Below are positions 46,568-64,000 of a stretch of DNA of 64,000 nt, piece after piece. Position 1 is the first letter of the stretch. Each line of letters opens with the position of its first letter. The position numbers and the translations under genes were made by a program. Under the pieces are notes generated by a model that did not search any database, had not been told where the DNA came from, and was given only the letters and a program-made list of their open reading frames with translations. Origin of the DNA: a virus; the IMG/VR virus record IMGVR_UViG_3300027319_000001; one strand, 5' to 3'.

Positions 46568-46891
46568 ATGGCCGATAGGACTATCACTGAGTACCCGACC
46601 ATGGGGAAGTCCGCCGCCACCGATTGGCGGAATGTGAGCGGTACGGTGTATCGCGGTGATCTGGAGCAGCGCCACACCTATAGCAAGGACAGCATGGTGA
46701 TGGCTGCCCTTCACCCGTCGCGGCGCAATGTGCATGAGCGTCTTGGTTTTGTCGGCGGCATCCAGGTGCGCCATGTGTATCCGAACGTCCCCGAGGCTAG
46801 TCTGACCCAGCGCAATGTTCGGACAATGCCGAACCGGCATGGACTGAGCGATTTTTGGGCGAAGCGGCAGTACGGACAGCGCATGCAGTGA
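46568..46891 (+). CDS. hypothetical protein
   Basis: 107-aa ORF with RBS GGAG. Confidence 0.55.
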   Translation: MADRTITEYPTMGKSAATDWRNVSGTVYRGDLEQRHTYSKDSMVMAALHPSRRNVHERLGFVGGIQVRHVYPNVPEASLTQRNVRTMPNRHGLSDFWAKRQYGQRMQ

Positions 46892-52747: not shown

Positions 52748-54238
52748 GTGCTGACCCTTTATTTTGGGGGAGCTGAAATCCCTGGTTGGCGGAAATTTCT
52801 CGCCGATCAGGGGGTCACACACGTATCGATGTCTTTCGTCGGTCTGCTGCGGCGGACACGTCTTGTGCGGCCGTGGCTGATTGATGAGAAATTCCCGGAA
52901 GACATGGCGATCTTTCTGGATTCTGGCGGTTACACGCTGAACAAGAATCCGGAGAAATACACGATTGAAGAGCTCCACGAAATGGCGCATAAGTACCGGG
53001 ATTTCGTGGAGATGAATTATGACCGCTTGGAAATGGTATCGGAGTTTGACGCCCTTGTCCTCGGTCAGGAGTGGATTCAGCGTGAGCGCGCCAGCTTCTG
53101 GGAGGGTCTTGGAGATAAGTGGCTGCCCATCTGGCACGCAGAGACGGGCATAGCGGAGCTGGAGCGTCTTGCCGCCACATACGGCCGTGTAGGCGTCCCT
53201 CAGACGTCTGTAGGCGGCCGGGACATTATCCCGGTACTCAACAGGCTGGCTCGTGATGGTGTGCGACTGCATGGCGTCGCCATGACCAAGACGACGCTTC
53301 TGGAAGAAGTTGCATTCGATTCCGTAGCGTCCACGTCTTGGCTCTCTCCCGCGCAATACGGGGATACTCAGATTTGGACCGGACACGAACTTAAACGCTA
53401 TCCCCGCAAATACAAGGAACAGGGGCGTAAAAGGCACCGCCAGCACCTCGCATCTCAGGGGTTCAACACCGAGGCGATTGAAGCAGATGACCATAACGAG
53501 GTGTTGCGTGTTGCCGTTTGGAGCTGGCAGCAGTACATCGCGCACCTGAATCGTGGGGGAGTAGTTAGTACATTGCGGAATAGGGATAATCCCGAAAATC
53601 GGGAAAACGAGCGCGCAGAAGTTGATACGCAGGTTTCCGAAACCAGTACCGAAGTATCAACTAGAAATCCGTTTCCGCGCGAGCGTCGGCAGCTTTTGCC
53701 GGGCGTCGTACTGGACGTCGTAAGCCGCTCTGAGCTGGGAGAAGACGGTCAACCGGTCCAACGAGAGGAACGCCGTGTCGGTGTAGATCGTATTGCTCTA
53801 CGCCAGTGTGATAGTTGCTACATTGCCAGCCGTTGCCCGGCGTTCGTGCCTCATGCCGAGTGTGGTTATGAGATCCCGGTACAGATAAAAACCCGGGAAC
53901 AGCTGGACGCGGCACGGCGCGCTGTCCTTGCCATGCAGCTGCAGCGCGTCATGTACATGCGGTTGGTGGAGGAGCTGGAAGGCGGTTATTCCGATCCGAA
54001 TCTCTCCAAAGAAATCGATCTGTTCAACCGCATGGCTACCCAGCTCTCAGAGGAAGACGCCGAGTCGGTTTCCATCAGCATAAAGGCTCGTGCTCGCTCC
54101 GATGGCGAGACCGGAATGATCGGCCGTCTGTTCGGCCGCGAGGCGGCAGAACAGGTTCGCGCGCTTCCTGAGACCGTGGAGTCGGACGATCTGCTTCAGC
54201 ACATGGGAGTTGTTGACGCTGAGGTAGTGGATCGCTGA
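52748..54238 (+). CDS. TGT/DpdA-like transglycosylase domain fused to a C-terminal Cys-containing helical domain
   Basis: IFLDSGGYTL compares with TGT TDSGGFQ, and RLHGVAMTK..VAFDSVASTSW compares with TGT LMGVG..DMFDCV. The C-terminal half carries CDSCYIASRC..HAEC. Confidence 0.5.
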   Translation: MLTLYFGGAEIPGWRKFLADQGVTHVSMSFVGLLRRTRLVRPWLIDEKFPEDMAIFLDSGGYTLNKNPEKYTIEELHEMAHKYRDFVEMNYDRLEMVSEFDALVLGQEWIQRERASFWEGLGDKWLPIWHAETGIAELERLAATYGRVGVPQTSVGGRDIIPVLNRLARDGVRLHGVAMTKTTLLEEVAFDSVASTSWLSPAQYGDTQIWTGHELKRYPRKYKEQGRKRHRQHLASQGFNTEAIEADDHNEVLRVAVWSWQQYIAHLNRGGVVSTLRNRDNPENRENERAEVDTQVSETSTEVSTRNPFPRERRQLLPGVVLDVVSRSELGEDGQPVQREERRVGVDRIALRQCDSCYIASRCPAFVPHAECGYEIPVQIKTREQLDAARRAVLAMQLQRVMYMRLVEELEGGYSDPNLSKEIDLFNRMATQLSEEDAESVSISIKARARSDGETGMIGRLFGREAAEQVRALPETVESDDLLQHMGVVDAEVVDR

Positions 54239-54246
54239 CCGGAAAA

Positions 54247-54290
54247 CGCTAGAAGCCCCGCGCCAAAAATCTGGCGTGGGGCTTCTAGCG
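54247..54290 (+). terminator. 19-bp-stem hairpin terminator
   Basis: CGCTAGAAGCCCCGCGCCA aaaatc TGGCGTGGGGCTTCTAGCG lies directly after the 54238 stop. Confidence 0.75.
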
Positions 54291-54491
54291 TACTTTGGCT
54301 ATTCCCATTCGGCGAAGAAGCGTATTAACGCCCCCGGTTATAATCGAAATTGTCCGAGAATTCGGCACGTGATTGGGGATTATGTGGCGGCTCGACGAAC
54401 TGCTCGACGAACTCTGCCGCATCGCCGCCGCGGGCCTCAGCGACGGAATCCTCACCTCCGCATTCGGTCACACATAAGTGAGAAGGAGACC

Positions 54492-56114
54492 ATGTCCCCC
54501 AGGAAGAAAAAGATCACCGAACAGGCGGCCCTGCTGGGCATGCCCGCCATGGCCGACCTGTACGACACCCTGTGGAAGGCCGCGAACAAGCTGCGTGGCT
54601 ACATGGACGCCGCACAGTACAAGGACTTCGTCCTGGGCCTGGTGTTCCTCAAGTACGTCTCGGACGCGTTCGAGGAGCGCCGCGAGGCCATCCGCGCGGA
54701 GATCCTGGCGCAGGGCATCCCCGAGTCCCGTCTCGACATGTTCCTCGACGACAAGGACGCGTGCATCGGCCACGGCGTCTTCTGGGTCCCGGAAGAGGCG
54801 CGCTGGTCGCACCTGGCTGCGCACGCCAAGAGCGACGGCATCGGCGAGCTCATCGACCGTGCCATGGACGCCATCATGAAATCCAACCCGTCGCTTGCTG
54901 GCGTACTGCCCAAGATCTTCAACCGGGACAACGTGGATCAGCGCCGTCTCGGCGAGCTGGTCGACCTCATCAGCGACGCCAGCTTCACCGGCCACGGCGA
55001 CAGGCCCGCCCGGGACGTGCTCGGCGAGGTCTACGAGTACTTCCTAGAGAAGTTCGCCCGCGCCGAAGGCCAGCGCGGCGGCGAGTACTACACCCCGCCC
55101 AGCGTGGTCAAGCTCCTGGTCCAGGTGCTGGAGCCGTACTCCGGCCGCGTCTACGACCCCTGCTGCGGATCAGGCGGCATGTTCGTGCAGGCCGAGAAGT
55201 TCGTGATCGCCCACCGCGGCATCCAGCACAAGGACGGCATCACCGTCTACGGCCAGGAATCCAACGAGCGCACCTGGCGGCTGGCGAAGATGAACCTCGC
55301 CATCCACGGCATCAGCGGCAACCTCGGCCCCCGCTGGGCGGACACCTTCCGCGAGGACAAACACCCCGACCTCAAAGCCGACTACATCCTCGCCAACCCG
55401 CCGTTCAACATGTCCGACTGGTCACGCACCGTGGACGACCCCAGGTGGCGCTTCGGCACGCCCCCGGCGAACAACGCCAACTTCGCCTGGCTGCAGCACA
55501 TCATTTCCAAGCTCGCCGAACGCGGCACCGCAGGCGTCGTGCTCGCCAACGGCTCCATGACCTCCATGAAGTCCGGCGAGGGCGAGATCCGCGCCGCCAT
55601 CGTCGAAGCCGACCTGGTCTCGTGCATGGTCGCACTGCCGCCGCAACTGTTCCGCACCACTCAGATCCCCGTCTGCCTGTGGTTCTTCGACAAGGACAAG
55701 AGCCCGCAGGGTGCCAAGCGGCTGGCAGACAGGCGCGGCGAGGTGCTGTTCATCGACGCCCGGAACATGGGCACGATGGTCGACCGCACCGAGCGCGTCC
55801 TCACTGACGACGACATCGCCCGCATCGCTGACACCTACCACGCCTGGCGGGGCACCGCCTCAGCCCGCGCCAAGAACCTGACGTACGAGGACGTGCCGGG
55901 ATACTGCTATTCAGCCACCCTCGAGGAGATCCGCCAGCACGACCACGTTCTGACCCCGGTCCGGTACGTCGGCGTGCCCGAGGTCGAGAACGACGATGAC
56001 GAGCCGATCACCGACAAGATCGCCCGGCTCGCCAAGGAGCTGTACGCCCACTTTGAGGAGTCCGCGCGGCTGGAGAAGGACGTGCGCGAGCAGTTGGAGC
56101 TGATCGATGGGTGA
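54492..56114 (+). CDS. hsdM: type I restriction-modification methyltransferase subunit
   Basis: RBS GAAGGAG precedes ATG 54492. It has an HsdM_N-like N-terminus (LWKAANKLRGYMDAAQYKDFVLGLVFLKYVSD), the AdoMet motif DPCCGSGGMF and the catalytic ANPPFN. Confidence 0.9.
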   Translation: MSPRKKKITEQAALLGMPAMADLYDTLWKAANKLRGYMDAAQYKDFVLGLVFLKYVSDAFEERREAIRAEILAQGIPESRLDMFLDDKDACIGHGVFWVPEEARWSHLAAHAKSDGIGELIDRAMDAIMKSNPSLAGVLPKIFNRDNVDQRRLGELVDLISDASFTGHGDRPARDVLGEVYEYFLEKFARAEGQRGGEYYTPPSVVKLLVQVLEPYSGRVYDPCCGSGGMFVQAEKFVIAHRGIQHKDGITVYGQESNERTWRLAKMNLAIHGISGNLGPRWADTFREDKHPDLKADYILANPPFNMSDWSRTVDDPRWRFGTPPANNANFAWLQHIISKLAERGTAGVVLANGSMTSMKSGEGEIRAAIVEADLVSCMVALPPQLFRTTQIPVCLWFFDKDKSPQGAKRLADRRGEVLFIDARNMGTMVDRTERVLTDDDIARIADTYHAWRGTASARAKNLTYEDVPGYCYSATLEEIRQHDHVLTPVRYVGVPEVENDDDEPITDKIARLAKELYAHFEESARLEKDVREQLELIDG

Positions 56115-57297
56115 GGCCGTAACGCTGGCTGACGTCTGCGAACTTATTGTCTGTAGTCATAGTACTCCTCCGGAGTGTCCCGCCGAGGAGGCTTACGGGT
56201 TCGCCGTTGGCACGCCAAATGTCCGTGACGGACGAATTGTTCTTGAATCCGCCAAACGAGTAAATCGCGAGACGTTCGCCACCTGGACCGCGCGTGCTGT
56301 ACCACAAGCTGGCGACTTGATCGTCACACGTAGGGGACCGGTAGGTCGAGTTGGGATAATTCCTGAAGGGGTGAAAATTTGCCTGGGGGCGAGAACCGTG
56401 CTTCTCAGAGCGAATGCGGAGATTGTTCACCCCCGTTTCCTGCACTATCTGCTGATGGGGCCTGACATGCAACATGCCATGCACGCCCTAAGCGGTGGAT
56501 CTACCGTTCTCAACCTTAAAGCAGAAGATTTCCGTAATCTCAAACTCCCGCCCCTCCCTTCCCTAATGCAGCAGCGAATGATTGGCGAGCTGCTCGGCGC
56601 GCTGGACGACAAGATCGCGGCCAACGAGCGGATCGCACGGGCCAGCCTCGACTTGGCGGACGCGCACTTTGAATTGGTCGCCCGCAATCTCGCATATAGC
56701 TCTGAAACGTTCGGAACGGTAGCTGAGGTGTTCGTCGGAGGTACACCACGGACCTCAGAGCCCGCGTACTGGGATGGATCGATTGCCTGGGCCACGCCAT
56801 CTGATGTCACTGGCCTGAGCGGACCCTATCTCTTCACCACGGCGAGAAAGATCACAGAGAAGGGCCTTACCCAGTGTGGTTCGCGGATCTACCCGCCTGG
56901 CTCAATCTTCATGACGTCGCGCGCGACGATCGGAGCCTTCGCGGTACCACAGATCCCGACAGCGGTGAGTCAAGGAATCATCGTCATCATTCCACGGCAG
57001 CCTGAAATGCGGTGGTGGTTGTTCCATGAAATGCGATCTCGGGTCGAGGAGATGCGTAGTCTCGCGAACGGCTCAGTTATCCTTGGACTGACTTGCGAGG
57101 ATTTCAAGGCCATGCGCGTCCGATTGGCCGAACCCGACGTGATCGCCCGCTTCTCTGCGCAAGTTGATCCTCTGCATAAGCGAGCAGCTAAGTGCGTCGA
57201 GGAGTCGTATGTCCTGGCTGAGCTTCGCGACACACTCCTGCCCAAGCTGATGTCCGGTGAGATCCGCGTACGAGACGCGGAGAAGGCGGCCGATTAA
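56107..57297 (+). CDS. hsdS: type I restriction-modification specificity subunit
   Basis: It overlaps the hsdM stop by 8 nt. It has two target-recognition halves separated by conserved helices (..QQRMIGELLGALDDKIAANERI.. and ..LAELRDTLLPKLMSGEIRV). Confidence 0.85.
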   Translation: MGEAVTLADVCELIVCSHSTPPECPAEEAYGFAVGTPNVRDGRIVLESAKRVNRETFATWTARAVPQAGDLIVTRRGPVGRVGIIPEGVKICLGARTVLLRANAEIVHPRFLHYLLMGPDMQHAMHALSGGSTVLNLKAEDFRNLKLPPLPSLMQQRMIGELLGALDDKIAANERIARASLDLADAHFELVARNLAYSSETFGTVAEVFVGGTPRTSEPAYWDGSIAWATPSDVTGLSGPYLFTTARKITEKGLTQCGSRIYPPGSIFMTSRATIGAFAVPQIPTAVSQGIIVIIPRQPEMRWWLFHEMRSRVEEMRSLANGSVILGLTCEDFKAMRVRLAEPDVIARFSAQVDPLHKRAAKCVEESYVLAELRDTLLPKLMSGEIRVRDAEKAAD

Positions 57298-57334
57298 CCT
57301 TGGAAGCGCCCCGCCGACAGGCGGGGCGCAACCA
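57285..57334. repeat. 50-bp repeat copy 1 (hsdS 3' end + terminator hairpin)
   Basis: GGCGGCCGATTAACCTTGGAAGCGCCCCGCCgacaGGCGGGGCGCAACCA. It also acts as a bidirectional terminator. Confidence 0.9.
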
Positions 57335-57402
57335 GGATCAATCGGACATGTTCAGGAGCTTTTCAATTTCAGCGAACGAAATGGTGATCTCGCTCTCCAG
57401 AG

Positions 57403-57618
57403 CTATCCGTGGTTGTTGTAGGCTTCGACTATATGCTGCCCAAGGAAGACACCACACATTACGGTGGCGATAAGGGACACGAGGAATGCGATTAAAGCGA
57501 GCATCTTTTCTGAGCCTTCCCGGCTGTTAATCGTGATGTTTAAGAAGTACCCTGTTCCACTTGCGAGAACCATTACGGTGACCAGGGAAATTACGGCAAC
57601 GAACTGCTCGTCGGTCAT
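57403..57618 (-). CDS. small two-TM membrane protein
   Basis: The start is MTDEQF.. at 57618, after a GGGAG RBS. Hydrophobic segments are VAVISLVTVMVLASGTGYFL and MLALIAFLVSLIATVMCGVFL. Confidence 0.55.
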   Translation of the reverse strand: MTDEQFVAVISLVTVMVLASGTGYFLNITINSREGSEKMLALIAFLVSLIATVMCGVFLGQHIVEAYNNHG

Positions 57619-57619
57619 T

Positions 57620-57706
57620 CGGATTTCTCCCGGATTTTTCCGTTTTGCTATGGCCGTCTCCCAACCGGATTTTTTCGGCTGGGAGACGACTAAAGCCAAA
57701 CGGATT
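57620..57706 (+). repeat. CGGATT array 1 (4 copies)
   Basis: CGGATT occurs at 57620, 57631, 57666 and 57701, all on the + strand. Confidence 0.85.
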
Positions 57707-57750
57707 ACCGGCTCTCCAATTTGTATCGTTTCCGGCGTCTCAGAAGAAGA

Positions 57751-58437
57751 TCAAAGTGCGTCGTCCAGTGTGTAGTCTACGAGACGTAGTCTGTCCAGCC
57801 CCTCTCGTTTCGCAATGATTGCTGCCGTCTCTTCAGTTAACCCACGGGCGCGGTGCTTTTCATAGAGTTTTGCGGCTTCTTCTGCCGTATGGGCGTCCCT
57901 GTACCGTGTGCCCAGGTCTCCGAAAGGATGTCCGTATTCCGGGTCCCTGACCATCGCACCCCAGGATGTTACCGTGCTCGCTTCTGTACCTACATATACG
58001 GTGGTACGGAACCTGCGGATCTCTACTTCATCCCCTGTGTCCAGTGTTAGTACGTGCTCCAGCTGACCTGCGTCAGCCTCCCACAGCTGCGGAGGCTCCT
58101 CCCCCGGCGCGTAGCCAAAATACTCTCCGAATCTCTTGAGTCCGGCAAGCCCACGCCTGAACCGTTCCCGAAACATGGCTCCAGCACGCGGAACCCGGCA
58201 CAGCTGCAAGATGTCCGTTGGTGTAAGTTCCACGTGCGTGATCCGTTCAACCCTGGTTGGGAACCCTCCACGCTGCTTATGTATGCGGACACGATTGCCA
58301 AAGAAGGTGATGAAAGTCACCGACTTAGGATCTGTCCGCACCACGATCTTCCTAGCCGTGCGGTTACCGCTCCTAGCGGCGACCGTGTATGAGCAGACAT
58401 CCCCAACTTTAAGGTTGCGCGTCTCAACCAACTCCAT
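57751..58437 (-). CDS. hypothetical protein (228 aa)
   Basis: A clean ORF beginning MELVETR.., with RBS GAGG. I recognise no motif. Confidence 0.6.
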   Translation of the reverse strand: MELVETRNLKVGDVCSYTVAARSGNRTARKIVVRTDPKSVTFITFFGNRVRIHKQRGGFPTRVERITHVELTPTDILQLCRVPRAGAMFRERFRRGLAGLKRFGEYFGYAPGEEPPQLWEADAGQLEHVLTLDTGDEVEIRRFRTTVYVGTEASTVTSWGAMVRDPEYGHPFGDLGTRYRDAHTAEEAAKLYEKHRARGLTEETAAIIAKREGLDRLRLVDYTLDDAL

Positions 58438-58460
58438 AGCGCCTCACTCCATAGCGCCTC
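58431..58460 (-). repeat. perfect 15-bp tandem duplication of the RBS + start codon of 57751..58437
   Basis: ACTCCATAGCGCCTC occurs twice. The minus strand reads GGAGGCGCTATGGAGTGAGGCGCTATGGAG. Confidence 0.95.
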
Positions 58461-58465
58461 CAAGT

Positions 58466-58515
58466 GGCGGCCGATTGGCCTTGGAAGCGCCCCGCCTGTC
58501 GGCGGGGCGCAACCA
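58466..58515. repeat. 50-bp repeat copy 2 (loop inverted)
   Basis: GGCGGCCGATTGGCCTTGGAAGCGCCCCGCCtgtcGGCGGGGCGCAACCA. It is the terminator for 58524..58808(-). Confidence 0.9.
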
Positions 58516-58523
58516 TGGTCACC

Positions 58524-58808
58524 TTAGTCCTCGATGGTGATCAGGTAGTGACGCTTACGGTACGTTTTCCTGGTCACCTGCGCGAGCGGATCCCGAGGGC
58601 AACCGTTATCAATGTAGTCCTGCCAGCCACGGATATGGCGCTGAATAGCGGATCTGCGAGTCTTGAGGATACTGGCCACGTACTTGCTTGGCTTTGCCTT
58701 GAGCTGCGACTCAATGTCGGCAAGCTCAACCTGACGGTCCGCGATCATCGCGAGCGCCGCCTGCAGGCGGACCGCATAGTCATAGTGAGCGAAAGGGTTG
58801 CTGTTCAT
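58524..58808 (-). CDS. hypothetical protein (94 aa), stand-alone transcription unit
   Basis: It begins MNSNPFAHYDY.. at ATG 58808 after a GGGAG RBS. It has its own consensus promoter and terminators on both sides. Confidence 0.55.
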   Translation of the reverse strand: MNSNPFAHYDYAVRLQAALAMIADRQVELADIESQLKAKPSKYVASILKTRRSAIQRHIRGWQDYIDNGCPRDPLAQVTRKTYRKRHYLITIED

Positions 58809-58836
58809 CGCGCTCCCGTGTCTTGGTGGTGGCTCC

Positions 58837-58865
58837 ACTATAGCGGGGTGCGTGACGAGTGTCAA
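58837..58865 (-). promoter_or_regulatory. near-consensus sigma-70/HrdB-type promoter
   Basis: The minus strand reads TTGACA - 17 nt - TATAGT (-35 at 58865..58860, -10 at 58842..58837). Confidence 0.65.
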
Positions 58866-58912
58866 CCTATCGCGCAGTAGTCGGGAACAGAGCTGTGACC
58901 TGGGGAAACGAA

Positions 58913-58943
58913 AGTCCCCGCGTCGCATTCCGACGCGGGGACT
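58913..58943 (-). terminator. intrinsic terminator of the HicA-like gene
   Basis: AGTCCCCGCGTCG cattc CGACGCGGGGACT. On the minus strand it is followed by TTCGTTTCC. Confidence 0.75.
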
Positions 58944-58948
58944 GGAAA

Positions 58949-59209
58949 TCAACCCTTTACGTCAAGCTTAGGAAATTTCCGTGCCTTGCCCTTATACCTC
59001 CCATGCGGGTTTCTGTACACCAGCCCTATCTTGGCTAGCTGACTGAGCGTGTTGTTCCTGCCGTGCTTGTCGCTGTTGGTGCGAGACACGATAACCAGTC
59101 CTCCATCCTGAGGATTTCGGACGTGGTAGTGACGCCCATTTTTCTTGATCAGGAAACCTTGCCTTGCCGCGAGTCTCAAGATGGCCTTGATGTCTTTTCG
59201 GTCGGTCAT
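58949..59209 (-). CDS. hicA: HicA-like (YcfA-fold) protein, no adjacent HicB
   Basis: ..KDIKAILRLAARQGFLIKKNGRHYHVRNPQDGGLVIVSRTNSDKHGRNNTLSQLAKIGL parallels the HicA pattern ..L...GF......GSH.......G....vp.H......gtl..il...gl. Confidence 0.5.
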   Translation of the reverse strand: MTDRKDIKAILRLAARQGFLIKKNGRHYHVRNPQDGGLVIVSRTNSDKHGRNNTLSQLAKIGLVYRNPHGRYKGKARKFPKLDVKG

Positions 59210-59237
59210 GTCACTCTGGTCTTGGTGCGGTGCGTTT

Positions 59238-59267
59238 AGCTTAGTGGCTTTGGGGTGGTTTGGTCAA
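59238..59267 (-). promoter_or_regulatory. candidate promoter of the HicA-like gene
   Basis: The minus strand reads TTGACC - 18 nt - TAAGCT, about 25 nt upstream of ATG 59209. Confidence 0.45.
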
Positions 59268-59321
59268 CAGCTGTCTGAGTCCTCCAGCAAGTGTCTTAGG
59301 AAAGATCACGTGATCGGCCAT

Positions 59322-59407
59322 CGGATTTTCCTCCAAGTTTGATTCGGATTTTTCCAGCAAGAGAGTTCGGATTTCTCTGGCGGATTACCAACCTGCCAGA
59401 CCGGATT
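59322..59407 (+). repeat. CGGATT array 2 (5 copies)
   Basis: CGGATT occurs at 59322, 59345, 59368, 59381 and 59402, all on the + strand. Confidence 0.85.
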
Positions 59408-59432
59408 TTGTGCCCGGCAGGAAGGGGATTCG

Positions 59433-59546
59433 TCAGAGGTATTCGTAGAGGATCAGTTCCTTGGTGGACTCGCTTAGCGCTCTGCCATCCTGTCCAAGGA
59501 AGACGTCCATCAGGTCTTTTACGATCTCTTCGATCTTATCCCGCAT
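59433..59546 (-). CDS. micro-ORF (37 aa)
   Basis: MRDKIEEIVKDLMDVFLGQDGRALSESTKELILYEYL. Its ATG sits at the centre of an 11-bp-arm palindrome. Confidence 0.4.
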   Translation of the reverse strand: MRDKIEEIVKDLMDVFLGQDGRALSESTKELILYEYL

Positions 59547-59740
59547 TGCGGGATAAGGATGCACTGCATGTTGGTGTCTGGATCCTCCGACAACATTTCT
59601 TTGAAGCGCTTGACCGTGGCGGCATCTGCACAAGCGCGCCTGTACGCCTTGGCTGCCGCAGAAAGGTAGGGGGTTTGTCTCGTTCGATCAGCGAGGTCGT
59701 GCAGTGCGTCGCCGCTGAGCGTGTACTCTTGCGCTTCCAT
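59519..59740 (-). CDS. hypothetical small protein (73 aa)
   Basis: It begins MEAQEYTLSGDALHDL.. from the second copy of a duplicated start region. Confidence 0.45.
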   Translation of the reverse strand: MEAQEYTLSGDALHDLADRTRQTPYLSAAAKAYRRACADAATVKRFKEMLSEDPDTNMQCILIPQCGIRSKRS

Positions 59741-59770
59741 GGGTGACTGTGCGCTTCCATGGGTGACTGT
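59731..59770 (-). repeat. perfect 20-bp tandem duplication of a start-codon region
   Basis: GCGCTTCCATGGGTGACTGT occurs twice. The minus strand reads ACAGTCACCCATGGAAGCGC twice. Confidence 0.95.
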
Positions 59771-59898
59771 ACGTTGCCAAGATCGGCGGGATAGACGTCC
59801 GCTCTGGATGGGTAATCCTAGCTTGACTGCGCGAGGCCTGTCGACCCGTCGCTCAGCGGTTGTTCGTGTGGGCATATCCCCAGGTCACAACGTTTTAT

Positions 59899-59938
59899 GC
59901 GCGACGGGTTGACACATGTCGCGCACTCCCATTAGTGT
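59899..59938 (+). promoter_or_regulatory. promoter/operator unit P1
   Basis: GCGCGACgggTTGACAcatGTCGCGCactcccatTAGTGT. The -35 and -10 are 18 nt apart, and the dyad GCGCGAC/GTCGCGC brackets the -35. Confidence 0.6.
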
Positions 59939-60167
59939 TAGGGGCGTCCTGCAGGGAATGGAGCACAGGGAGGTAGCCGTGAGAGGCAGAGCGTTAGGGA
60001 ATAGCGGCGGTTCCAGCAGATCTCCGCCTAGAGACCCGGCCCTATTAGGGAGGGTGGGCGGGACACTCGACTAGTTCGGTTATAGGGAGTGCGGCTGGTG
60101 TTGCCGCACTCCCACTAATCGGCCTAGCCGAGACGACCACCAAACCGCACCATAACCGGAGGAAACC

Positions 60168-60422
60168 ATGACTCGTGTCATCCCCAAACACGCCCGAATC
60201 ATTAATCGGCGTTGGGCGTTGAAGGACGGGGAGGTGGCTTGGGTCGTGATGTACGACGCGACCGTGCCCTGCCGCCGTCGCGGTGAATCCAAGCTGGTTT
60301 TCGGTCTCGCTAAATACATCTCCCGTGGGGATGAAGTTATGATCCTCTCCCGCCGTGAGTATGGGGAGGAAGAGCTGAGCCAACTCCAGGACAGCTTTGA
60401 GTCTGCGTGTGCCACCCTCTAG
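60168..60422 (+). CDS. hypothetical protein (84 aa)
   Basis: RBS GGAGGA precedes ATG 60168. Confidence 0.55.
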   Translation: MTRVIPKHARIINRRWALKDGEVAWVVMYDATVPCRRRGESKLVFGLAKYISRGDEVMILSRREYGEEELSQLQDSFESACATL

Positions 60423-60443
60423 TTGACGTGACAAGGAGGACAA

Positions 60444-60719
60444 ATGCGAGCAAGAGACATTCTTCTCGTCGTGGGCACCACACTCTGTGCCATCGCCGTC
60501 GCCATTCCTATCACGGCGGCGCTCCACTCGGCGGAGCCCACCGCCGAGGAGCGGAGAGCCCGAGCGGACTCCAGAATCAAAAACAACACCAGGGTCGTGG
60601 TGTTGACAGTCGAAGGGCGGGAGCTCCCGTGCGTCGTGTGGACCGGAAGCCGCATGGGCGGGATCTCCTGCGATTGGTCGAGATGGGGTCAAACGCCCAC
60701 CCCGGCCCCCACCAACTAG
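60444..60719 (+). CDS. small secreted/membrane-anchored protein
   Basis: RBS AGGAGG is present. The N-terminal hydrophobic segment is ILLVVGTTLCAIAVAIPITAAL. Confidence 0.55.
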   Translation: MRARDILLVVGTTLCAIAVAIPITAALHSAEPTAEERRARADSRIKNNTRVVVLTVEGRELPCVVWTGSRMGGISCDWSRWGQTPTPAPTN

Positions 60720-60753
60720 CACGCTGCATCCAATTCTCAACTCAAAAGGGACG

Positions 60754-61155
60754 ATGATGATGATCGTCAACCTGACCCCGCACCCCATCCACATCTACGC
60801 GCCGGACACCCCGGATGTGGTCGGCCCGGAGCACAAACCCCTCTACACTATCCAGCCGTCCGGCACCTACGCCCGCATCACCACCACACGCACTCCCAGC
60901 GGCACCATCACGGTCGGCGGCTGGGAGGTCCCCCTCGTGGAAACAACCTACGGAAGTGTCGTTGACCTCCCCGACCCCAAGCCTGGGGTGCTCTATCTGG
61001 TGAGCTTGGCGTGTGCCACGGAGATGCGGCACTCCGGCCGAGACGACCTCATCGTCGTCGACAGGCTCGTACGCAACTCGGAGGGCACGGTTGTGGGAGC
61101 GCGCGGCTTCAGCCGCGTCGCGACGCGGATGATCGACCACGATACAGTCGACTAG
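60754..61155 (+). CDS. hypothetical protein (133 aa)
   Basis: The start is ATGATGATG, followed by ..IVNLTPHPIHIY... I recognise no function. Confidence 0.55.
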   Translation: MMMIVNLTPHPIHIYAPDTPDVVGPEHKPLYTIQPSGTYARITTTRTPSGTITVGGWEVPLVETTYGSVVDLPDPKPGVLYLVSLACATEMRHSGRDDLIVVDRLVRNSEGTVVGARGFSRVATRMIDHDTVD

Positions 61156-61163
61156 CGGCATCA

Positions 61164-61214
61164 CCGGTAGTTGGCAGCCCCGGTCTTCAGGCCGGGGCTT
61201 GCGCCGCCAACTAC
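61164..61214 (+). terminator. conserved box + TTCA-loop hairpin, copy B
   Basis: CCGGTAGTTGGCA GCCCCGGTC ttca GGCCGGGGC ..GCCAACTAC begins 9 nt after the stop. Confidence 0.65.
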
Positions 61215-61243
61215 ATCATTGAATAGCACCCATCGGAGGAAAA

Positions 61244-61729
61244 ATGGCTTGGGACATTCTTCGCATCGGCAGACCGAAGCACTTGGGTGGTACGGATTAC
61301 TACCGCCATGTTACCGCTGTCCAGTGCCCAAAGTGCCGGGAACTGGAGGTCACTGTATACGATGATTTCAGCGGAGAGTATCGGTGCATGGCGTGCGATA
61401 GAAATATCGGCACGCCTAAGGAAATCGTAATCACTGTTTGGAATGAATTCACCAATCACACAAAGTCGCAACAAGGGCGACGTCCCGGCTGTCGTTGGTG
61501 CCGTACCGGAACCTACGGTATGTGTGCTGAAGGCATGAAGTACCTCAGCAGGATCAGGGAGCACGAGGTTAGGTATGAGGTCCCCTACCTTGCCATTCTG
61601 GGGACAGGTCCGGACAGCATGATTGAGGTTCGCGCGCTTTGGCATACACAGGAGAGGGATATCACCCGGGTCATGCACCCACACGCTGTGCTAGTGGATC
61701 AGCCCCACATTTTCCAGGTTCTGTGGTGA
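61244..61729 (+). CDS. hypothetical zinc-ribbon protein
   Basis: RBS GGAGGA is present. Cysteine motifs are CPKC..(16)..CMAC and CRWC..C. Confidence 0.55.
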   Translation: MAWDILRIGRPKHLGGTDYYRHVTAVQCPKCRELEVTVYDDFSGEYRCMACDRNIGTPKEIVITVWNEFTNHTKSQQGRRPGCRWCRTGTYGMCAEGMKYLSRIREHEVRYEVPYLAILGTGPDSMIEVRALWHTQERDITRVMHPHAVLVDQPHIFQVLW

Positions 61730-61742
61730 ACCTCAGCGTTGA

Positions 61743-61799
61743 CCGGTAGTTTGGCGCGCAAGAGCCCCGGCCTTCAGGCCGGGGAGCGCGTCAACTAGG
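61743..61799 (+). terminator. conserved box + TTCA-loop hairpin, copy C
   Basis: CCGGTAGTTTGGCGCGC..GCCCCGGCC ttca GGCCGGGG..GCGCGTCAACTAGG. Confidence 0.65.
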
Positions 61800-61867
61800 C
61801 GCGACACACCACCGCCGCCGCCCGGCAGCGGGGCGGCGGCTCCCATCTGATCGGAGGAGAGATTCCA

Positions 61868-62104
61868 ATGGCACGTTCCCCGCGCATCTTCACCTTGATT
61901 TCCGCCCTCGCAGGTGACCGCATGCCCGAGGGTGCAGTTGAGCTTTCCGACCCAAGCTGCCCGTTCTCGTGGGCGTCACTGCCACCATCCGCCCAGCGAT
62001 GGGCGGAGGAGCAGGGATACGGCAGCGACGACGCCGAGCTGCTGTACGTACTGCCCGGCGATGCAGAGGTCCACGGGTGGCCAACCTACCGCATTGAGCG
62101 CTGA
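61868..62104 (+). CDS. hypothetical protein (78 aa)
   Basis: RBS GGAGGAG precedes ATG 61868. Confidence 0.55.
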   Translation: MARSPRIFTLISALAGDRMPEGAVELSDPSCPFSWASLPPSAQRWAEEQGYGSDDAELLYVLPGDAEVHGWPTYRIER

Positions 62105-62152
62105 CCGGTAGTTGGGCGGCTTACTCCGGTCTTCAGGCCGGAGTAAGCCGCC
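62105..62152 (+). terminator. conserved box + TTCA-loop hairpin, copy D
   Basis: CCGGTAGTTG GGCGGCTTACTCCGGTC ttca GGCCGGAGTAAGCCGCC starts at the first nt after the stop. Confidence 0.7.
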
Positions 62153-62186
62153 ACCTTCGTCACGCACACGTGTTAGTTTATGAGCC

Positions 62187-62612
62187 ATGGAAGCCACCAT
62201 TACCACGCCACCTATTCCGGACGCCATTCCTGATGGATGGGATCGCATCAATTTCTCGTGGTTCTGTACACGCATCTTCATGGAGGATCGTGTGCTGGAA
62301 ACCGTTCTGACCGTACGTCGTTTTGATACTCGGGAGTGCGCTGCAACTGATCTCCGCAGCGTCCTTAAGACGCTGGGAAGTTGTGAAGAAGACCATGGCG
62401 ATGTAGCCATGGCTCGCTGGTTTAAGGACCATGCGTACACCTGGGCGCGGCTGGATTTGGATAAGATCCCGGTGATTCAGCACGTTCTGTTCAATCACGG
62501 CATGCTAATCACAGGAATCATTGGTTTTGTATCGGGGACTGACCCAAAAATCACCCTTAAGCACCTGTTGAGTAACTCGGAAAATTTCTCCATCGTCATA
62601 AAGGAAGAGTAG
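62187..62612 (+). CDS. hypothetical protein (141 aa)
   Basis: A clean ORF with a weak RBS. Confidence 0.5.
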   Translation: MEATITTPPIPDAIPDGWDRINFSWFCTRIFMEDRVLETVLTVRRFDTRECAATDLRSVLKTLGSCEEDHGDVAMARWFKDHAYTWARLDLDKIPVIQHVLFNHGMLITGIIGFVSGTDPKITLKHLLSNSENFSIVIKEE

Positions 62613-62613
62613 C

Positions 62614-62971
62614 CGGATCTCCAGGGTTCCGGATGTATTTATTGAGCTCGGATTTCGAATCGGTTTTCCACACGGCAAACCGGATTCTCAATAACAGGTT
62701 TGGAAGCGGATTTTCCGGAAATCGGGAAATCTAAATGTCTGCGGACGTCCCGATGGATTTCGTGATTCTTTTTAGCTGACGAGAGGGTGAATTCATCGCG
62801 CCGTGTTTTCCGGATTCTGGGAATGATGTGCGCGGATTGACCGGATAGGTCACCCAGGTTACCGGATTGAACGGCGGATTTTTGATATCTCAGTGGTCCC
62901 GGTAAAAGCCGGATACGCTCCGTTTCGCACGTGAGGTTTCGCACGGCGAGCTTAACCAGGCGCGCCCGGAT
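62614..62971 (+). repeat. CGGAT(T) array 3 (12 exact CGGAT, all + strand), ORF-free
   Basis: Copies lie at 62614, 62630, 62649, 62681, 62707, 62811, 62833, 62842, 62863, 62875, 62910 and 62967. Confidence 0.9.
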
Positions 62972-62993
62972 ATTCCCGGGCGCGTCTTTTCTT
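62961..62993 (+). terminator. intrinsic terminator closing the repeat array
   Basis: CGCGCCCGG atattc CCGGGCGCG is followed by TCTTTTCTT. Confidence 0.75.
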
Positions 62994-63059
62994 GTACGTA
63001 CCTCTGTATGTCCCCCTTGCGCATACCAGCTGCCATATCGCCATCAGATTACGGTGGGT

Positions 63060-63098
63060 GCGCGACGTCTTGCGCACCATCGCGCAGTGGGTTATCCT
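63060..63098 (+). promoter_or_regulatory. promoter/operator unit P2
   Basis: GCGCGACgtcTTGCGCaccaTCGCGCAgtgggtTATCCT, with a 17-nt spacer. Confidence 0.55.
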
Positions 63099-63156
63099 GC
63101 CAACTGATCACCGGCTCTGACCAGGCCGGGTAACCGCACCAAACCGGAGAGTGACG

Positions 63157-63579
63157 ATGGCGAAGCGAGGTACCGGAATCCGGAGAGGTACCGGCATTCG
63201 TGAGTACCTGCCAGGGGACCGGATTTCCTGGATGCATTACCACCTGGATGGCACGGCTACGCAGCGGACCGGGACCGTGTGGGACGCAGCACCTCCCGTG
63301 CGTATGGGGGATCTGCACACGCGTGACAGCATCCAGGTGGCCTGGTGGGTTGTGCCTGATGAGGCACTCCCCACCGATGCCTACCACTGCATCGCTGTCG
63401 GCAAGGCACGCCGGGAAAAGCCCGCTCACGGCAGGTGGCTTGACGGGATCGGCGGAGCGTGGGTCACGGGTGGGACCCTGTACTCCAGCGACTACGTCGG
63501 CTCAGCGCCGGGATGGCTGACCAACCGCGCTGCTAGGGTGGCGTGGGAGACTCGTCAAGCCAACGCCGCCGCCGCTTAG
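63157..63579 (+). CDS. hypothetical protein (140 aa)
   Basis: RBS GGAGAG precedes ATG 63157. Its leader is shared with the 60168 gene. Confidence 0.55.
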   Translation: MAKRGTGIRRGTGIREYLPGDRISWMHYHLDGTATQRTGTVWDAAPPVRMGDLHTRDSIQVAWWVVPDEALPTDAYHCIAVGKARREKPAHGRWLDGIGGAWVTGGTLYSSDYVGSAPGWLTNRAARVAWETRQANAAAA

Positions 63580-63612
63580 CCCAGCTAGGACCTGCCAGCA
63601 AAGCCGCCGTCG

Positions 63613-63643
63613 GACCCCCGCCCTGCATGGGCGGGGGTCTTTT
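63613..63643 (+). terminator. intrinsic terminator
   Basis: GACCCCCGCCC tgcat GGGCGGGGGTC is followed by TTTT. Confidence 0.8.
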
Positions 63644-63688
63644 CGTCCTTAGTGTCTGATTTTGTATCACGATGCTATAACAACTGCT

Positions 63689-63726
63689 GCGCGACGCCTT
63701 GCGCACCATCGCGCATTGAATAACGT
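63689..63726 (+). promoter_or_regulatory. promoter/operator unit P3
   Basis: GCGCGACgccTTGCGCaccaTCGCGCAttgaaTAACGT, with a 16-nt spacer. Confidence 0.55.
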
Positions 63727-63762
63727 GTGAGGCACACGAACGAACGAACGGAGGTTCACCAA

Positions 63763-64000
63763 ATGCCGCTCCCTCTGGAAATCAACATCATCCGGACCGC
63801 GCTCGCGGAGACCGGAGTCCCGCGCAAGGCGGTCCGGTACCGCAAGGTCGGCAGCGAGGCGTACGAGGCGTTCATTGTGGACCCTGAGTGGGCTGCCTAC
63901 GTGGGGGAGTCTGCGCACGCCTACGCTCAGCAGTGCGGCCTTGACCTGTGGGTGGTCCGCCACCGCTGTGGCCATGTGGCTAGGGTCCGCATTCGCCTGG
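63763..64000 (+). CDS. hypothetical protein, 3'-truncated by the window end
   Basis: RBS GGAGG precedes ATG 63763, and the frame stays open to the window end (MPLPLEINIIRTALAETGVPRK..). The antisense track ORF 63667..63975 is less plausible. Confidence 0.5.
   Translation, partial: MPLPLEINIIRTALAETGVPRKAVRYRKVGSEAYEAFIVDPEWAAYVGESAHAYAQQCGLDLWVVRHRCGHVARVRIRL

What the first reader, a model, noticed from the sequence alone, without database searches (positions are those of the whole stretch)
62614..62993. ORF-free 0.36-kb tract packed with same-strand CGGAT(T) repeats and closed by an intrinsic terminator
What is seen:
- The tract starts 2 nt after the stop of 62187..62612.
- It holds 12 exact CGGAT copies, 7 of them CGGATT, all on the + strand (positions in the feature list).
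- Near-variants also occur: TGGATT 62754, CGGAA 62716, CGGTTT 62661.
- I saw no ATCCG on the + strand in the tract.
- A given 5-mer is expected about once per kb per strand.
- The extended consensus is roughly CGGATTTYTCC.
- The tract ends in the hairpin CGCGCCCGG/CCGGGCGCG followed by TCTTTTCTT.
- The only track ORF here (62639..62944, minus strand) is a patchwork of the repeats read in mixed frames.
- Three copies place GGAU in the loops of short hairpins: AAACC[GGATTCTCAATAACA]GGTTT at 62677..62701, TTCC[GGATTCTG]GGAA at 62808..62823, and GACC[GGATA]GGTC at 62839..62851.

Interpretation: a terminator-bounded RNA with many looped GGA motifs is the architecture of the CsrB/RsmZ-type protein-sponge sRNAs of proteobacteria. 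Actinobacteria generally lack CsrA, so any partner would be different and possibly phage-encoded.

Equally possible is a DNA iteron array for a phage DNA-binding protein (regulator, partition centromere, or packaging-recognition site). Copy spacings of 9 to 57 bp cluster near 10-12, 20-23 and 35. I know of no described element of this form in actinophages.
Basis: partly seen in the sequence, partly recalled or inferred. Interest (0 to 1): 0.8.

Follow-up and report, generated by a model that had tools for sequence, protein, structure and literature searches.

The report
Same-strand CGGATT repeat array in phage
A 0.36-kb gene-free stretch at the end of an early operon of an uncultivated large actinobacterial-type phage carries 12 same-strand copies of CGGAT(T); the enrichment is real, two smaller clusters lie nearby, it looks more like protein-binding sites on DNA than a CsrB-type RNA sponge, and its function is unproven.

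Summary
The tract 62614-62993 has 12 CGGAT (7 CGGATT) on the + strand and no ATCCG. The next-best 380-nt window in 64 kb has 5. A 12-bp intrinsic terminator (-26 kcal/mol) closes it.

New facts:
- Two more same-strand clusters exist, at 57620-57711 (4 copies) and 59322-59412 (5 copies). Both lie between minus-strand genes, so the motif is antisense to local transcription there.
- Outside the three clusters the motif has no strand bias.
- The extended site is CGGATTT(Y)(Y)CC. Full copies read CGGA-T(3-5)-TCCG.
- The small clusters are phased at about 11.5 bp (p=0.007). The tract alone is not (p=0.36).
- A 96% relative keeps the motif count and strand exclusivity. Its 5' two-thirds diverge at about the synonymous rate and carry a 25-nt duplication that adds a copy.

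The CsrB/RsmZ reading is not supported. GGA is not preferentially unpaired, one proposed hairpin is broken in the relative, there is no Rfam hit, and no CsrA was found.

Best reading (about 0.4): an iteron-like array of DNA-binding sites whose binder is unknown. Rivals are a repeat-bearing 3'UTR RNA (about 0.25) and a functionless decaying repeat (about 0.25).

All known relatives are near-identical, so selection on the motif could not be shown.

The parts
62614..62957 (+). Body of the array: 11 exact CGGAT (7 CGGATT) plus the near-variants CGGTTT 62661, CGGAA 62716 and TGGATT 62754. G+T-rich on the + strand, GC 0.47-0.52 against 0.58 for the window. No gene is called here.
62958..62993 (+). 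Intrinsic terminator with a 12-bp stem, 6-nt loop and a TCTTTTCTT tail. It holds the 12th CGGAT (62967) in its stem and loop, and closes the early operon.
   Evidence: scan; -26.2 kcal/mol. 100% identical in L014/L015.
62187..62612 (+). 141-aa ORFan gene that ends 2 nt before the first repeat. It is always found together with the tract, and it is a real coding gene: 8 synonymous and 6 non-synonymous differences from the 96% variant.
   Evidence: No Pfam or PHROG hit. AlphaFold2 pLDDT 33.
59322..59412 (+). Cluster B: 5 same-strand copies (CGGATTTTCC, CGGATTTTTCC, CGGATTTCTC, CGGATTACC, CGGATTTTG) spaced 23, 23, 13 and 21 nt. It lies in the gap upstream of the minus-strand HicA-like 86-aa gene. 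All 5 cores are intact in three sequence variants.
57620..57711 (+). Cluster A: 4 same-strand copies (CGGATTTCTCC, CGGATTTTTCC, CGGATTTTTTC, CGGATTACC) spaced 11, 35 and 35 nt. It lies in the 132-nt gap between two minus-strand genes (228 aa and 71 aa). Copy 57631 is an exact CGGATTTTTCCG.
63220..63230 (+). Isolated high-scoring copy, CGGATTTCCTG (PWM 13.2 bits), inside the next gene. Whether it belongs to the system is uncertain.
   Evidence: (families D4, D14)
59895..59945 (+). Rightward early promoter with operator (TGCGCGAC-GGG-TTGACA-...-GTCGCGCA, then TAGTGT). It is the only promoter-like element between here and 63056, so it is the likely source of the transcript that ends at the tract's terminator (inferred).
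63056..63100 (+). Next promoter/operator copy (TGCGCGAC-GTC-TTGCGC-...-TCGCGCA, then TATCCT). It starts the following transcription unit and bounds the element on the right.

Best explanation
The tract is the largest of three clusters of short, same-oriented binding sites on double-stranded DNA for a sequence-specific DNA-binding protein, probably of the winged-helix type.

- The unit is CGGATT followed by a T-rich tail and often CC(G).
- The complete site is the 12-mer CGGA-TTTT-TCCG, two inverted 4-bp half-sites around a T-tract. Most copies in the tract are half-sites.
- The clusters bracket the immunity and early-control region (57.6-63.0 kb). They would load or titrate several copies of one protein there. 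Possible purposes are control of replication, copy number or segregation, or control of early versus leftward transcription.

Shown:
- The motif enrichment is real.
- All copies in the three clusters lie on one DNA strand, whatever the local gene direction.
- The motif has no strand bias outside the clusters.
- Clusters A and B are phased at about 11.5 bp.
- The motif count and strand exclusivity persist in a diverged relative.

Inferred: that a protein binds the sites, that it acts on DNA and not RNA, and what the binding achieves. The binder is unidentified.
For: - Three clusters lie on the same DNA strand although A and B sit between minus-strand genes and C follows a plus-strand gene.
- There is no strand bias outside the clusters: CGGAT is 122 on the + strand and 133 on the - strand. 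Seven of the 8 CGGATTTT on the + strand are inside clusters.
- All PWM hits of at least 12 bits between 55 and 72 kb are on the + strand, and all but one lie in the clusters.
- Spacings in A and B (11, 35, 35; 23, 23, 13, 21) fit multiples of about 11.5 bp, p=0.007 against random placement.
- The core is invariant and the flanks look random (information profile). This is the usual look of binding-site arrays and not of decayed tandem units. Tandem Repeats Finder finds no array.
- Full copies are half-palindromic: 57631 CGGATTTTTCCG, 62707 CGGATTTTCCGG, 57666 CCGGATTTTTTCGG.
- The 12-mer CGGAAAAATCCG is repeated 4-6 times inside the linker-coding part of HTH_36-type initiator genes. It occurs in two independent high-GC viral contig families whose proteins are only 33% identical.
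- In the 96% relative the motif count is kept (CGGAT 12 to 11, GGATT 8 to 11, ATCCG 0 in both). This holds despite 8.2% substitutions and a 25-nt duplication that adds an exact 12-mer.
- All 5 cores of cluster B are intact in three variants.
- Literature precedent in Actinobacteria: clt loci and plasmid iterons are 50-300-bp non-coding stretches with 5-9-bp direct repeats bound by winged-helix proteins (PMC4447253, PMC3583192).
Against: - No candidate binder was found. The adjacent 141-aa gene is an ORFan and its model is unusable.
- No ParA/ParB, ribbon-helix-helix, FtsK/TraB or L006-type initiator is present in the 72.6 kb available.
- The phage's own HTH_36 initiator (26480-27547) carries different repeats and a typical ori structure 36 kb away.
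- The tract itself is not significantly phased (p=0.36). All three clusters together give p=0.07.
- Only 5-7 nt are well conserved, much less than classical 17-22-bp iterons.
- Substitutions between the two variants do not avoid the cores significantly: 2 of 20 fall in 40 of 243 nt, against 3.3 expected.
- Two further clusters agree with the first in orientation one time in four by chance.
- The link to initiator iterons came from a search built around this motif. The same pattern hits at least 120 unrelated bacterial contigs, mostly tandem or coding repeats.
Confidence: 0.4

Rival explanations
1. RNA element. The tract is the 345-nt 3'UTR of the first early operon (P at about 59908 to T at 62958), or a stable 3'-derived sRNA processed from it. 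Its 11-12 CGGAU(U) motifs act on RNA in one of two ways. (a) They serve as a multi-site decoy for an RNA-binding protein, so it works like CsrB without being a member. (b) They serve as repeated antisense seeds that pair with the AAAUCCG motifs carried by the leftward mRNAs at clusters A and B. Two of those motifs sit between a Shine-Dalgarno sequence and a start codon (GGAGAAAUCCGAAUG at 57630-57616, GGAGGAAAAUCCGAUG at 59334-59319).
For: - No terminator lies between the stop codon (62612) and the strong terminator at 62958, so the tract must be transcribed with the 141-aa gene. Every other small gene nearby has its hairpin 10-40 nt after the stop.
- The array fills the space from stop codon to terminator exactly.
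- Version (b) would explain why clusters A and B are on the DNA strand complementary to their own mRNAs.
- The tract folds better than shuffles: z = -4.15 including the terminator.
- The phage encodes possible RNA-binding proteins: SpoVS-like at 45942-46253, a weak CvfB S1-like match at 46568-46891, and HicA-like at 58949-59209.
Against: - GGA is not preferentially unpaired (0.26 against 0.35).
- The minus strand folds almost as well (z = -3.4), so the stability is not strand-specific.
- Cluster B RNA is not unusually structured (z = +0.38).
- There are no compensatory changes, and one proposed hairpin is broken in L014.
- No Rfam match, no internal promoter and no CsrA found.
- The ATG of the 26-aa minus-strand ORF at cluster B is lost in L014 (CAT to CGT). 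This weakens the idea of a translational target there.
- Complementarity between C and A/B does not extend beyond the shared 7-12-nt motif.
Confidence: 0.25
2. No present function. The tract is a spacer built by repeated local duplication or slippage of a short CGGATTTTTCC-containing unit. It may be a remnant of iterons from an initiator gene acquired by recombination, and is now decaying.
For: - The 5' 243 nt differ from the L014 variant by 8.2% plus a 25-nt tandem duplication. This is about the synonymous rate of the adjacent gene (8 synonymous changes in 141 codons; gene overall 3.3%).
- Cores are hit about as often as expected, 2 observed against 3.3.
- Copy number changes by duplication.
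- The locus is known only from near-identical relatives, and the gene next to it is an ORFan.
- Phage genomes here are mosaics with breakpoints next to cluster B.
- Short CGGATTT-type repeats arise in many unrelated genomes.
Against: - Neutral decay of tandem units should erode all positions alike. Here a 5-6-nt core is exact in 21 copies while the flanks are random.
- Three separate clusters share the core, the T-rich tail and the strand.
- ATCCG is completely absent from the + strand in both variants.
- Motif number is maintained through turnover: one copy improved from CGGATC to CGGATT, one GAATT became GGATT, and one copy was added by duplication.
- Phage genomes rarely keep 0.35 kb of useless DNA inside a tightly packed early region.
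Confidence: 0.25
3. Specialised cis site of a known class: a secondary origin of replication, a partition centromere, a pac/cos recognition site, or attP arm-type sites.
For: - Direct repeats in a lower-GC non-coding stretch near the immunity region.
- In contig L002 the same module abuts a leftward operon that includes an SPP1-type portal gene, about 300-400 nt from cluster B.
Against: - No initiator, ParA/ParB/ParR, terminase or integrase gene lies next to any cluster.
- There are no tRNA genes and no tRNA-like core.
- There is no AT-rich unwinding element.
- A canonical ori sits inside the initiator gene at 26.8 kb.
- The L002 genes next to cluster B have no terminase signature.
Confidence: 0.08

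Closest known systems
Iteron arrays of plasmid and phage replicons (lambda ori inside gene O; P1 incC/incA; Streptomyces pWTY27/pFP11 iterons)
   Same: - Many same-oriented short repeats in a 0.1-0.4-kb stretch, some half-palindromic around an A/T tract.
- Spacings of about 11 and 23 bp in clusters A and B.
- A second or third array at a distance from the first, as with P1 incA, can titrate or handcuff.
- The identical 12-mer CGGAAAAATCCG is the in-gene repeat of HTH_36 initiators in viral contigs L006/L009/L013 and L007.
- pWTY27 has five 8-bp direct repeats in a 300-bp non-coding region bound by RepA (PMC3583192).
   Different: - Only 5-7 nt are strongly conserved, against 17-22 bp in classical iterons.
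- Spacing in the main tract is irregular.
- There is no adjacent initiator gene and no AT-rich unwinding element.
- The phage's own initiator has other repeats elsewhere.
clt loci / TraB recognition sequences of Streptomyces conjugative plasmids
   Same: Found in Actinobacteria. These are non-coding stretches next to a gene, with several direct 5-9-bp repeats recognised by a winged-helix domain. The motifs are polar (PMC4447253, PMC3583192).
   Different: No FtsK/TraB-like translocase gene was found in the 72.6 kb available. This is a phage, not a conjugative plasmid. The motif sequence is different.
CsrB/RsmY/RsmZ protein-sponge sRNAs
   Same: A terminator-bounded transcribed region with about a dozen GGA-containing motifs, all on the transcribed strand.
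   Different: - GGA is not presented in loops.
- There is no Rfam match, no own promoter and no CsrA in the phage proteins scanned.
- From general knowledge, Actinobacteria lack CsrA.
- The conserved unit is CGGAUU(U), not A(N)GGA.
- The sister clusters are antisense to their local genes.
Dispersed regulatory repeats of actinophages (Cluster A stoperators, Cluster K start-associated sequences)
   Same: Short asymmetric motifs repeated in intergenic DNA of actinophages. Two copies here overlap a Shine-Dalgarno-to-start-codon interval on the opposite strand, as start-associated sequences do. This comparison rests on my own knowledge of the literature, not on a tool result.
   Different: Those motifs are 13-14 bp and occur as single copies spread over the whole genome, in a fixed orientation relative to transcription. 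Here a 5-7-nt core is packed into three clusters, and it shows no bias elsewhere.

Membership tests
CsrB/RsmZ-type sponge sRNA | Multiple GGA motifs exposed in hairpin loops or single-stranded linkers | tested here: not met
   The mean unpaired probability of GGA in the 11 body copies is 0.26, against 0.35 for the whole tract. One cited hairpin is broken in L014.
CsrB/RsmZ-type sponge sRNA | Sequence and structure match to a curated family model | tested here: not met
   cmscan of 58000-64000 at E<=10 gave no hit inside the tract.
CsrB/RsmZ-type sponge sRNA | A cognate CsrA/RsmA protein is present | tested here: inconclusive
   There is no CsrA domain among about 80 phage proteins scanned against Pfam or PHROGs. 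The host is unknown and more than 80 kb of the genome was not available.
CsrB/RsmZ-type sponge sRNA | Independent transcription unit with its own promoter and terminator | tested here: inconclusive
   The terminator is present. No promoter-like site or operator copy lies between 62613 and 62957. The tract would be a 3'UTR.
Iteron-type replication origin | At least 3 well-conserved 17-22-bp direct repeats | tested here: not met
   Information content is confined to CGGAT plus about 2-3 bits in the next 5 positions. Tandem Repeats Finder and the repeat finder give no long repeat family in the tract.
Iteron-type replication origin | An initiator gene adjacent to or enclosing the repeats | tested here: not met
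   The neighbours are ORFans without HTH domains. The HTH_36 initiator lies at 26480-27547 with its own repeats. tblastn with the L006 initiator finds nothing near the clusters.
Iteron-type replication origin | Helical phasing of the repeats and a neighbouring AT-rich unwinding region | tested here: inconclusive
   Clusters A and B are phased at about 11.5 bp (p=0.007). The tract is not (p=0.36). The lowest GC is 0.45-0.47 and there is no AT-rich block.
Partition centromere (parS/parC/sopC) | Partner genes parA/parB or parM/parR in the same element | tested here: inconclusive
   None was found in the 72.6 kb scanned. The rest of the genome, which totals at least 150 kb, could not be fetched.
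Streptomyces clt / TRS | An adjacent FtsK-like TraB translocase | tested here: not met
   There is no FtsK/SpoIIIE domain among the proteins scanned. The adjacent genes have no Pfam hit.
Type III toxin-antitoxin RNA (ToxI-like) | Near-identical tandem repeats of about 36 nt directly upstream of a toxin gene | tested here: not met
   There is no tandem array. The cluster B units upstream of the HicA-like gene share only the short core.
attP with integrase arm-type sites | An adjacent integrase gene and a core matching a host tRNA or gene | tested here: not met
   No integrase was found near the clusters. There are no tRNA genes or tRNA-like segments.
Genome-wide polar motifs (Chi, KOPS/SRS) | Strand-skewed distribution along the whole replicon | tested here: not met
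   Outside the clusters CGGAT is 122 on the + strand and 133 on the - strand. CGGATT is 20 and 35.

The most novel reading that the evidence does not exclude
The array is a decoy that soaks up a nucleic-acid-binding protein. It could do this as RNA: the 3'UTR of the immediate-early operon would act as a CsrB-like sponge for a non-CsrA RNA-binding protein in an actinobacterial host, and its seeds would also pair with the leftward mRNAs at clusters A and B. It could instead do this as DNA: 'foreign' CGGAAAAATCCG iterons would titrate the HTH_36-type initiator of a competing phage or plasmid, a form of replicon interference. Neither version has been described for actinophages.
Probability: 0.12. 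Interest if true: 0.8.

Novelty: new variant of a known kind. Interest (0 to 1): 0.42.

Why it matters
If the clusters are real protein-binding arrays, they mark an unrecognised control layer around the immunity and early region of a large, uncultivated actinobacterial-type myovirus. The available sequence has no recognisable repressor, partition or integration genes. The arrays would therefore give a handle for finding the binder by DNA or RNA pull-down.

If the RNA reading is right, this would be a sponge-type or multi-seed regulatory RNA in a lineage without CsrA or Hfq, which would be notable.

If it is decaying repeat DNA, it is a caution that striking short-motif arrays can arise by local duplication. 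With only near-identical relatives available, the case cannot yet be settled by computation.

Tried and rejected
- Rfam at E<=10 over 58-64 kb gave nothing in the tract.
- BLAST of the locus against GenBank phages (near and distant) and against plasmids gave no match.
- Protein-based search for relatives of both flanking genes in IMG/VR found none.
- The 141-aa gene finds only itself among 5.8 billion clustered proteins and 1.84 billion representatives.
- The AlphaFold2 model has pLDDT 33 and is unusable, so no fold search was run.
- Exact-protein look-ups gave four contigs with a 100% identical tract, which carry no information on covariation.
- The JGI metagenome scan gave one useful variant, seen twice (L014 and L015).
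- The operator pattern is absent from IMG/VR.
- The array pattern in GTDB genomes gave at least 120 hits in all phyla. Most are tandem or coding repeats, so the pattern is not specific and neither host nor binder could be inferred.
The one relative fetched, L138, has no cluster.
- Coding potential was rejected. There is no + strand ORF longer than 33 aa, the 101-aa minus-strand ORF is uncalled, and it reads the repeats in mixed frames.
- A tRNA-like or attP core was rejected.
- A ToxI-like antitoxin was rejected.
- A Chi/KOPS-like polar motif was rejected.
- A relic of an initiator gene was rejected. tblastn with the L006 initiator hits only the phage's own HTH_36 gene at 26.5 kb.
Full report
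**Context**

The window comes from a large phage with a contractile tail and an actinobacterial flavour.
- It encodes a tail sheath, baseplate J, an NlpC/P60-SLT tape measure, and a CHAP + PG_binding_1 endolysin.
- It encodes a full replication module: an HTH_36 initiator, a DnaC-like loader, DnaB, primase, PolA, RNR, RecA, RuvC, ThyX and a Cas4-like exonuclease.
- It also encodes a DpdA-like transglycosylase and HsdM/HsdS.
- The PolA is only 45% identical to its best GenBank phage match, Streptomyces phage BRock. No GenBank phage or plasmid matches the locus at the DNA level.
- A 97-kb ENA contig starts at window position 55823 and runs rightwards, so the genome is at least about 150 kb.

**Local anatomy**

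- Genes are on the + strand up to 57297.
- A block of minus-strand genes (71, 228, 94 and 86 aa) occupies 57403-59209.
- A divergent promoter/operator pair lies at 59815-59945.
- From 60168 onwards there are small + strand ORFan genes.
- A palindromic operator wrapped around a -35 box (TGCGCGAC...TTGACA/TTGCGC...TCGCGCA) recurs at 58846, 59825, 59895, 63056 and 63685.
- No copy lies between 59895 and 63056. The genes 60168-62612 therefore probably form one early operon that ends at the terminator closing the tract (inferred).
- The other small genes have their hairpin 10-40 nt after the stop codon. The 141-aa gene has 345 nt between its stop and the terminator.

**Checking the observation**

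- All counts are right: 12 CGGAT, 7 CGGATT, and no ATCCG on the + strand.
- The next-richest 380-nt window in 64 kb has 5 copies.
- In 5000 dinucleotide-preserving shuffles of the tract, any 5-mer reached 12 copies 4 times.
- The terminator is found by the scan and folds at -26.2 kcal/mol. The 12th copy is part of it.
- Tandem Repeats Finder reports no tandem array.
- There is no credible ORF. The longest + strand ORF is 33 aa, and the 101-aa minus-strand ORF is not called on any public contig.

**What was not in the finding: two more clusters**

- Cluster A lies at 57620-57711 and has 4 copies spaced 11, 35 and 35 nt.
- Cluster B lies at 59322-59412 and has 5 copies spaced 23, 23, 13 and 21 nt.
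- Both are on the same DNA strand as the tract. Both lie in gaps between minus-strand genes, so there the motif is antisense to local transcription.
- Aligning all 21 copies gives C-CGGAT-T-T-Y-Y-C, with random flanks.
- Full copies read CGGA-T(3-5)-TCCG, for example 57631 CGGATTTTTCCG and 62707 CGGATTTTCCGG.
- A PWM scan of 72.6 kb puts every hit of at least 12 bits between 55 and 72 kb on the + strand. All are in the clusters except one copy at 63220, inside the next gene.
- Outside the clusters the motif has no strand bias: CGGAT is 122 on the + strand and 133 on the - strand. This is a local, clustered feature, not a genome-wide polar sequence.

**RNA tests**

- The tract folds better than shuffles on both strands: z = -4.15 on the + strand and -3.4 on the - strand, with the terminator included.
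- Cluster B does not fold unusually well (z = +0.38).
- In the ensemble, the GGA of the motif copies is less exposed (0.26) than the average nucleotide (0.35).
- Rfam gives nothing.
- No promoter lies inside the tract.
- No CsrA domain was seen among about 80 proteins scanned.
- The tract is almost certainly transcribed as a 3'UTR, but it does not have the CsrB/RsmZ architecture.

**DNA tests**

- Pairwise spacings peak at 11.3-11.6 bp in each cluster separately.
- Against random placement the peak is significant for A and B together (p=0.007).
- It is not significant for the tract alone (p=0.36). All three clusters together give p=0.07.

A pattern search in IMG/VR for the motif array returned nine contigs.
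- Four are coding or simple tandem repeats.
- L006/L009/L013 (one element) and L007 are different. They carry 4-6 copies of CGGAAAAATCCG inside the linker-coding part of an HTH_36-type replication initiator gene. This is the arrangement known from lambda O and ori.
- The two proteins are only 33% identical.
- L011 carries the same 12-mer inside an ORF that is cut by the contig end.
- This 12-mer is therefore a plausible winged-helix protein site.

The link to the window's tract is weak for two reasons.
- The window's own HTH_36 initiator (26480-27547) has different repeats: GCGTACCAACTRRGGAAAAAATTTC twice and AGTTGTGATGT twice. It also has an AT-rich block, a canonical ori 36 kb away.
- The same pattern hits at least 120 contigs from every bacterial phylum, mostly tandem or coding repeats.

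**Comparative evidence**

- Four public contigs carry a 100% identical tract.
- One of them, L002, joins the same early module to a different left arm (with an SPP1-type portal) at window 59261, about 60 nt from cluster B.
- One diverged variant was recovered (L014/L015; the 141-aa protein is 96% identical).

| Segment (window coordinates) | Difference from L014 |
|---|---|
| 141-aa gene, 62187-62612 | 3.3% (8 synonymous, 6 non-synonymous) |
| Tract, first 243 nt | 8.2%, plus a 25-nt tandem duplication that adds an exact CGGATTTTTCCG |
| Tract, last 138 nt, including the terminator | 0.7% |

- Two cores are lost (62630 C>T, 62846 T>G).
- One copy improves from CGGATC to CGGATT, one GAATT becomes GGATT, and one copy is gained by the duplication.
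- Net counts are CGGAT 12 to 11, GGATT 8 to 11, and ATCCG 0 in both.
- Substitutions hit the cores about as often as chance predicts (2 observed, 3.3 expected).
- The five cores of cluster B are intact in three variants. The ATG of a 26-aa minus-strand ORF that overlaps the first copy is lost in L014.
- The data fit selection on motif number with free turnover. They do not prove it.

**Candidate binder**

None was identified.
- The 141-aa gene, always linked to the tract, is an ORFan in 1.84 billion representative proteins. Its single-sequence model is unusable (pLDDT 33).
- The proteins next to clusters A and B have no domain hits, apart from a weak HicA-like signal for the 86-aa protein.
- No ParA/ParB, ribbon-helix-helix, FtsK/TraB or integrase was found in the 72.6 kb available.

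**Weighing**

| Reading | Estimated probability | Main grounds |
|---|---|---|
| DNA-level array of binding sites | about 0.4 | It explains the uniform DNA-strand orientation across oppositely transcribed regions, the phasing of A and B, the half-palindromic full sites, the invariant core with random flanks, and the match to presumed initiator iterons. It has precedents in actinobacterial clt loci and plasmid iterons (PMC4447253, PMC3583192). |
| RNA element | about 0.25 | The tract is certainly part of a transcript and fills the stop-to-terminator gap exactly. The tract RNA is complementary to the leftward mRNAs at A and B. |
| Functionless decaying repeat | about 0.25 | This follows from the near-neutral divergence and the narrow distribution of the locus. 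|
| Origin, centromere, pac or attP site | less than 0.1 in total | Each of these known site classes fails at least one defining feature. |

**Verdict**

The feature is real and statistically solid, and it is wider than reported: three clusters, not one. Function and binder remain unknown, and the evidence for selection is inconclusive. Interest is moderate.

Noticed in passing
window 58846-58878 (-), 59825-59857 (-), 59895-59927, 63056-63088, 63685-63717: A family of about 30-bp palindromic operator-like sites (TGCGCGAC...TCGCGCA), each wrapped around a -35 box (TTGACA or TTGCGC) and followed by a -10-like hexamer. It looks like a repressor-controlled set of early and divergent promoters. The 94-aa minus-strand gene at 58524-58808 is a candidate repressor.
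   Followed up: partly
window 26800-26945, inside ORF 26480-27547: A canonical origin-like structure inside the HTH_36 initiator gene. It has two 25-nt repeats (GCGTACCAACTRRGGAAAAAATTTC at 26805 and 26880), two AGTTGTGATGT repeats (26833 and 26855), and an AT-rich block. A DnaC-like loader, DnaB and primase genes follow.
   Followed up: partly
window 61176-61197, 61763-61784, 62115-62152: Three copies of a hairpin with the same loop (CCGG-TCTTCAGG-CCGG core), each placed just after a small early gene and none followed by a T-run. They may be U-tract-less terminators or RNA-stabilising or processing elements.
   Followed up: no
window 52748-57297: A DNA-modification module. It has a 496-aa protein matching phrog_887 (queuine tRNA-ribosyltransferase, DpdA-like; E 1e-64), followed by HsdM (N6_Mtase) and HsdS, with no HsdR seen. 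This suggests 7-deazaguanine and/or methyl modification of the phage DNA.
   Followed up: no
L001 13800-15450 (about 5.6-7.3 kb beyond the window end): A 1.7-kb gene-free region full of repeat families. It has a phased A-tract array (GAAAAATAGGAAAAAATAGGAAAAATAAGTGAGAAAAATCAGAAAAATCGG) and direct repeats CTCCGGGATAAGATCATC x2, CCTCAGTCAAC x2 and GACAGTGGC...GGGGGTTAGCAG x2. The GAAAAATCGG units resemble the reverse complement of the tract motif, but the core is CCGAT, not CGGAT. It could be a second origin or the region of the genome ends.
   Followed up: partly
window 59261 (breakpoint); L002 1-5870: Contig L002 carries the early module 59262-64000+ at 96-99.5% identity. It is joined to a completely different left arm of minus-strand genes that includes an SPP1-type portal. 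This is either a phage mosaic or an assembly chimera.
   Followed up: partly
window 59730-59769: A perfect 20-bp tandem duplication (TGCGCTTCCATGGGTGACTG x2) that covers a minus-strand ATG. It is a single copy in L002.
   Followed up: no
window 62165-62189: The window has a 5-nt insertion (TTTAT) relative to L014, exactly in the Shine-Dalgarno region of the 141-aa gene. L014 reads TTAGGAGCCATG and the window reads TTAGTTTATGAGCCATG. Translation of this gene may be weakened in the window's phage.
   Followed up: no
window 45942-46253 and 46568-46891: A SpoVS-family protein (PF04232, E 1e-22) and a small protein with a weak CvfB S1-like match. Both are unusual in a phage and could bind nucleic acid.
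   Followed up: no
window 58949-59209 (-) and 57403-57618 (-): A HicA-like 86-aa protein (weak PHROG toxin hits) with no obvious HicB partner, and a 71-aa protein that appears to have two hydrophobic segments (judged by eye). Each sits directly downstream, in its own reading direction, of one of the small motif clusters.
   Followed up: partly
window 57303-57335 and 58476-58521: Two copies of the GC-rich hairpin GGAAGCGCCCCGCC-NNNN-GGCGGGGCGCAACC at the borders of the minus-strand gene block.
   Followed up: no
L001 12468-12830: A 120-aa protein with an Arr-ms (rifampin ADP-ribosyltransferase) domain (E 1e-10) among the early genes.
   Followed up: no
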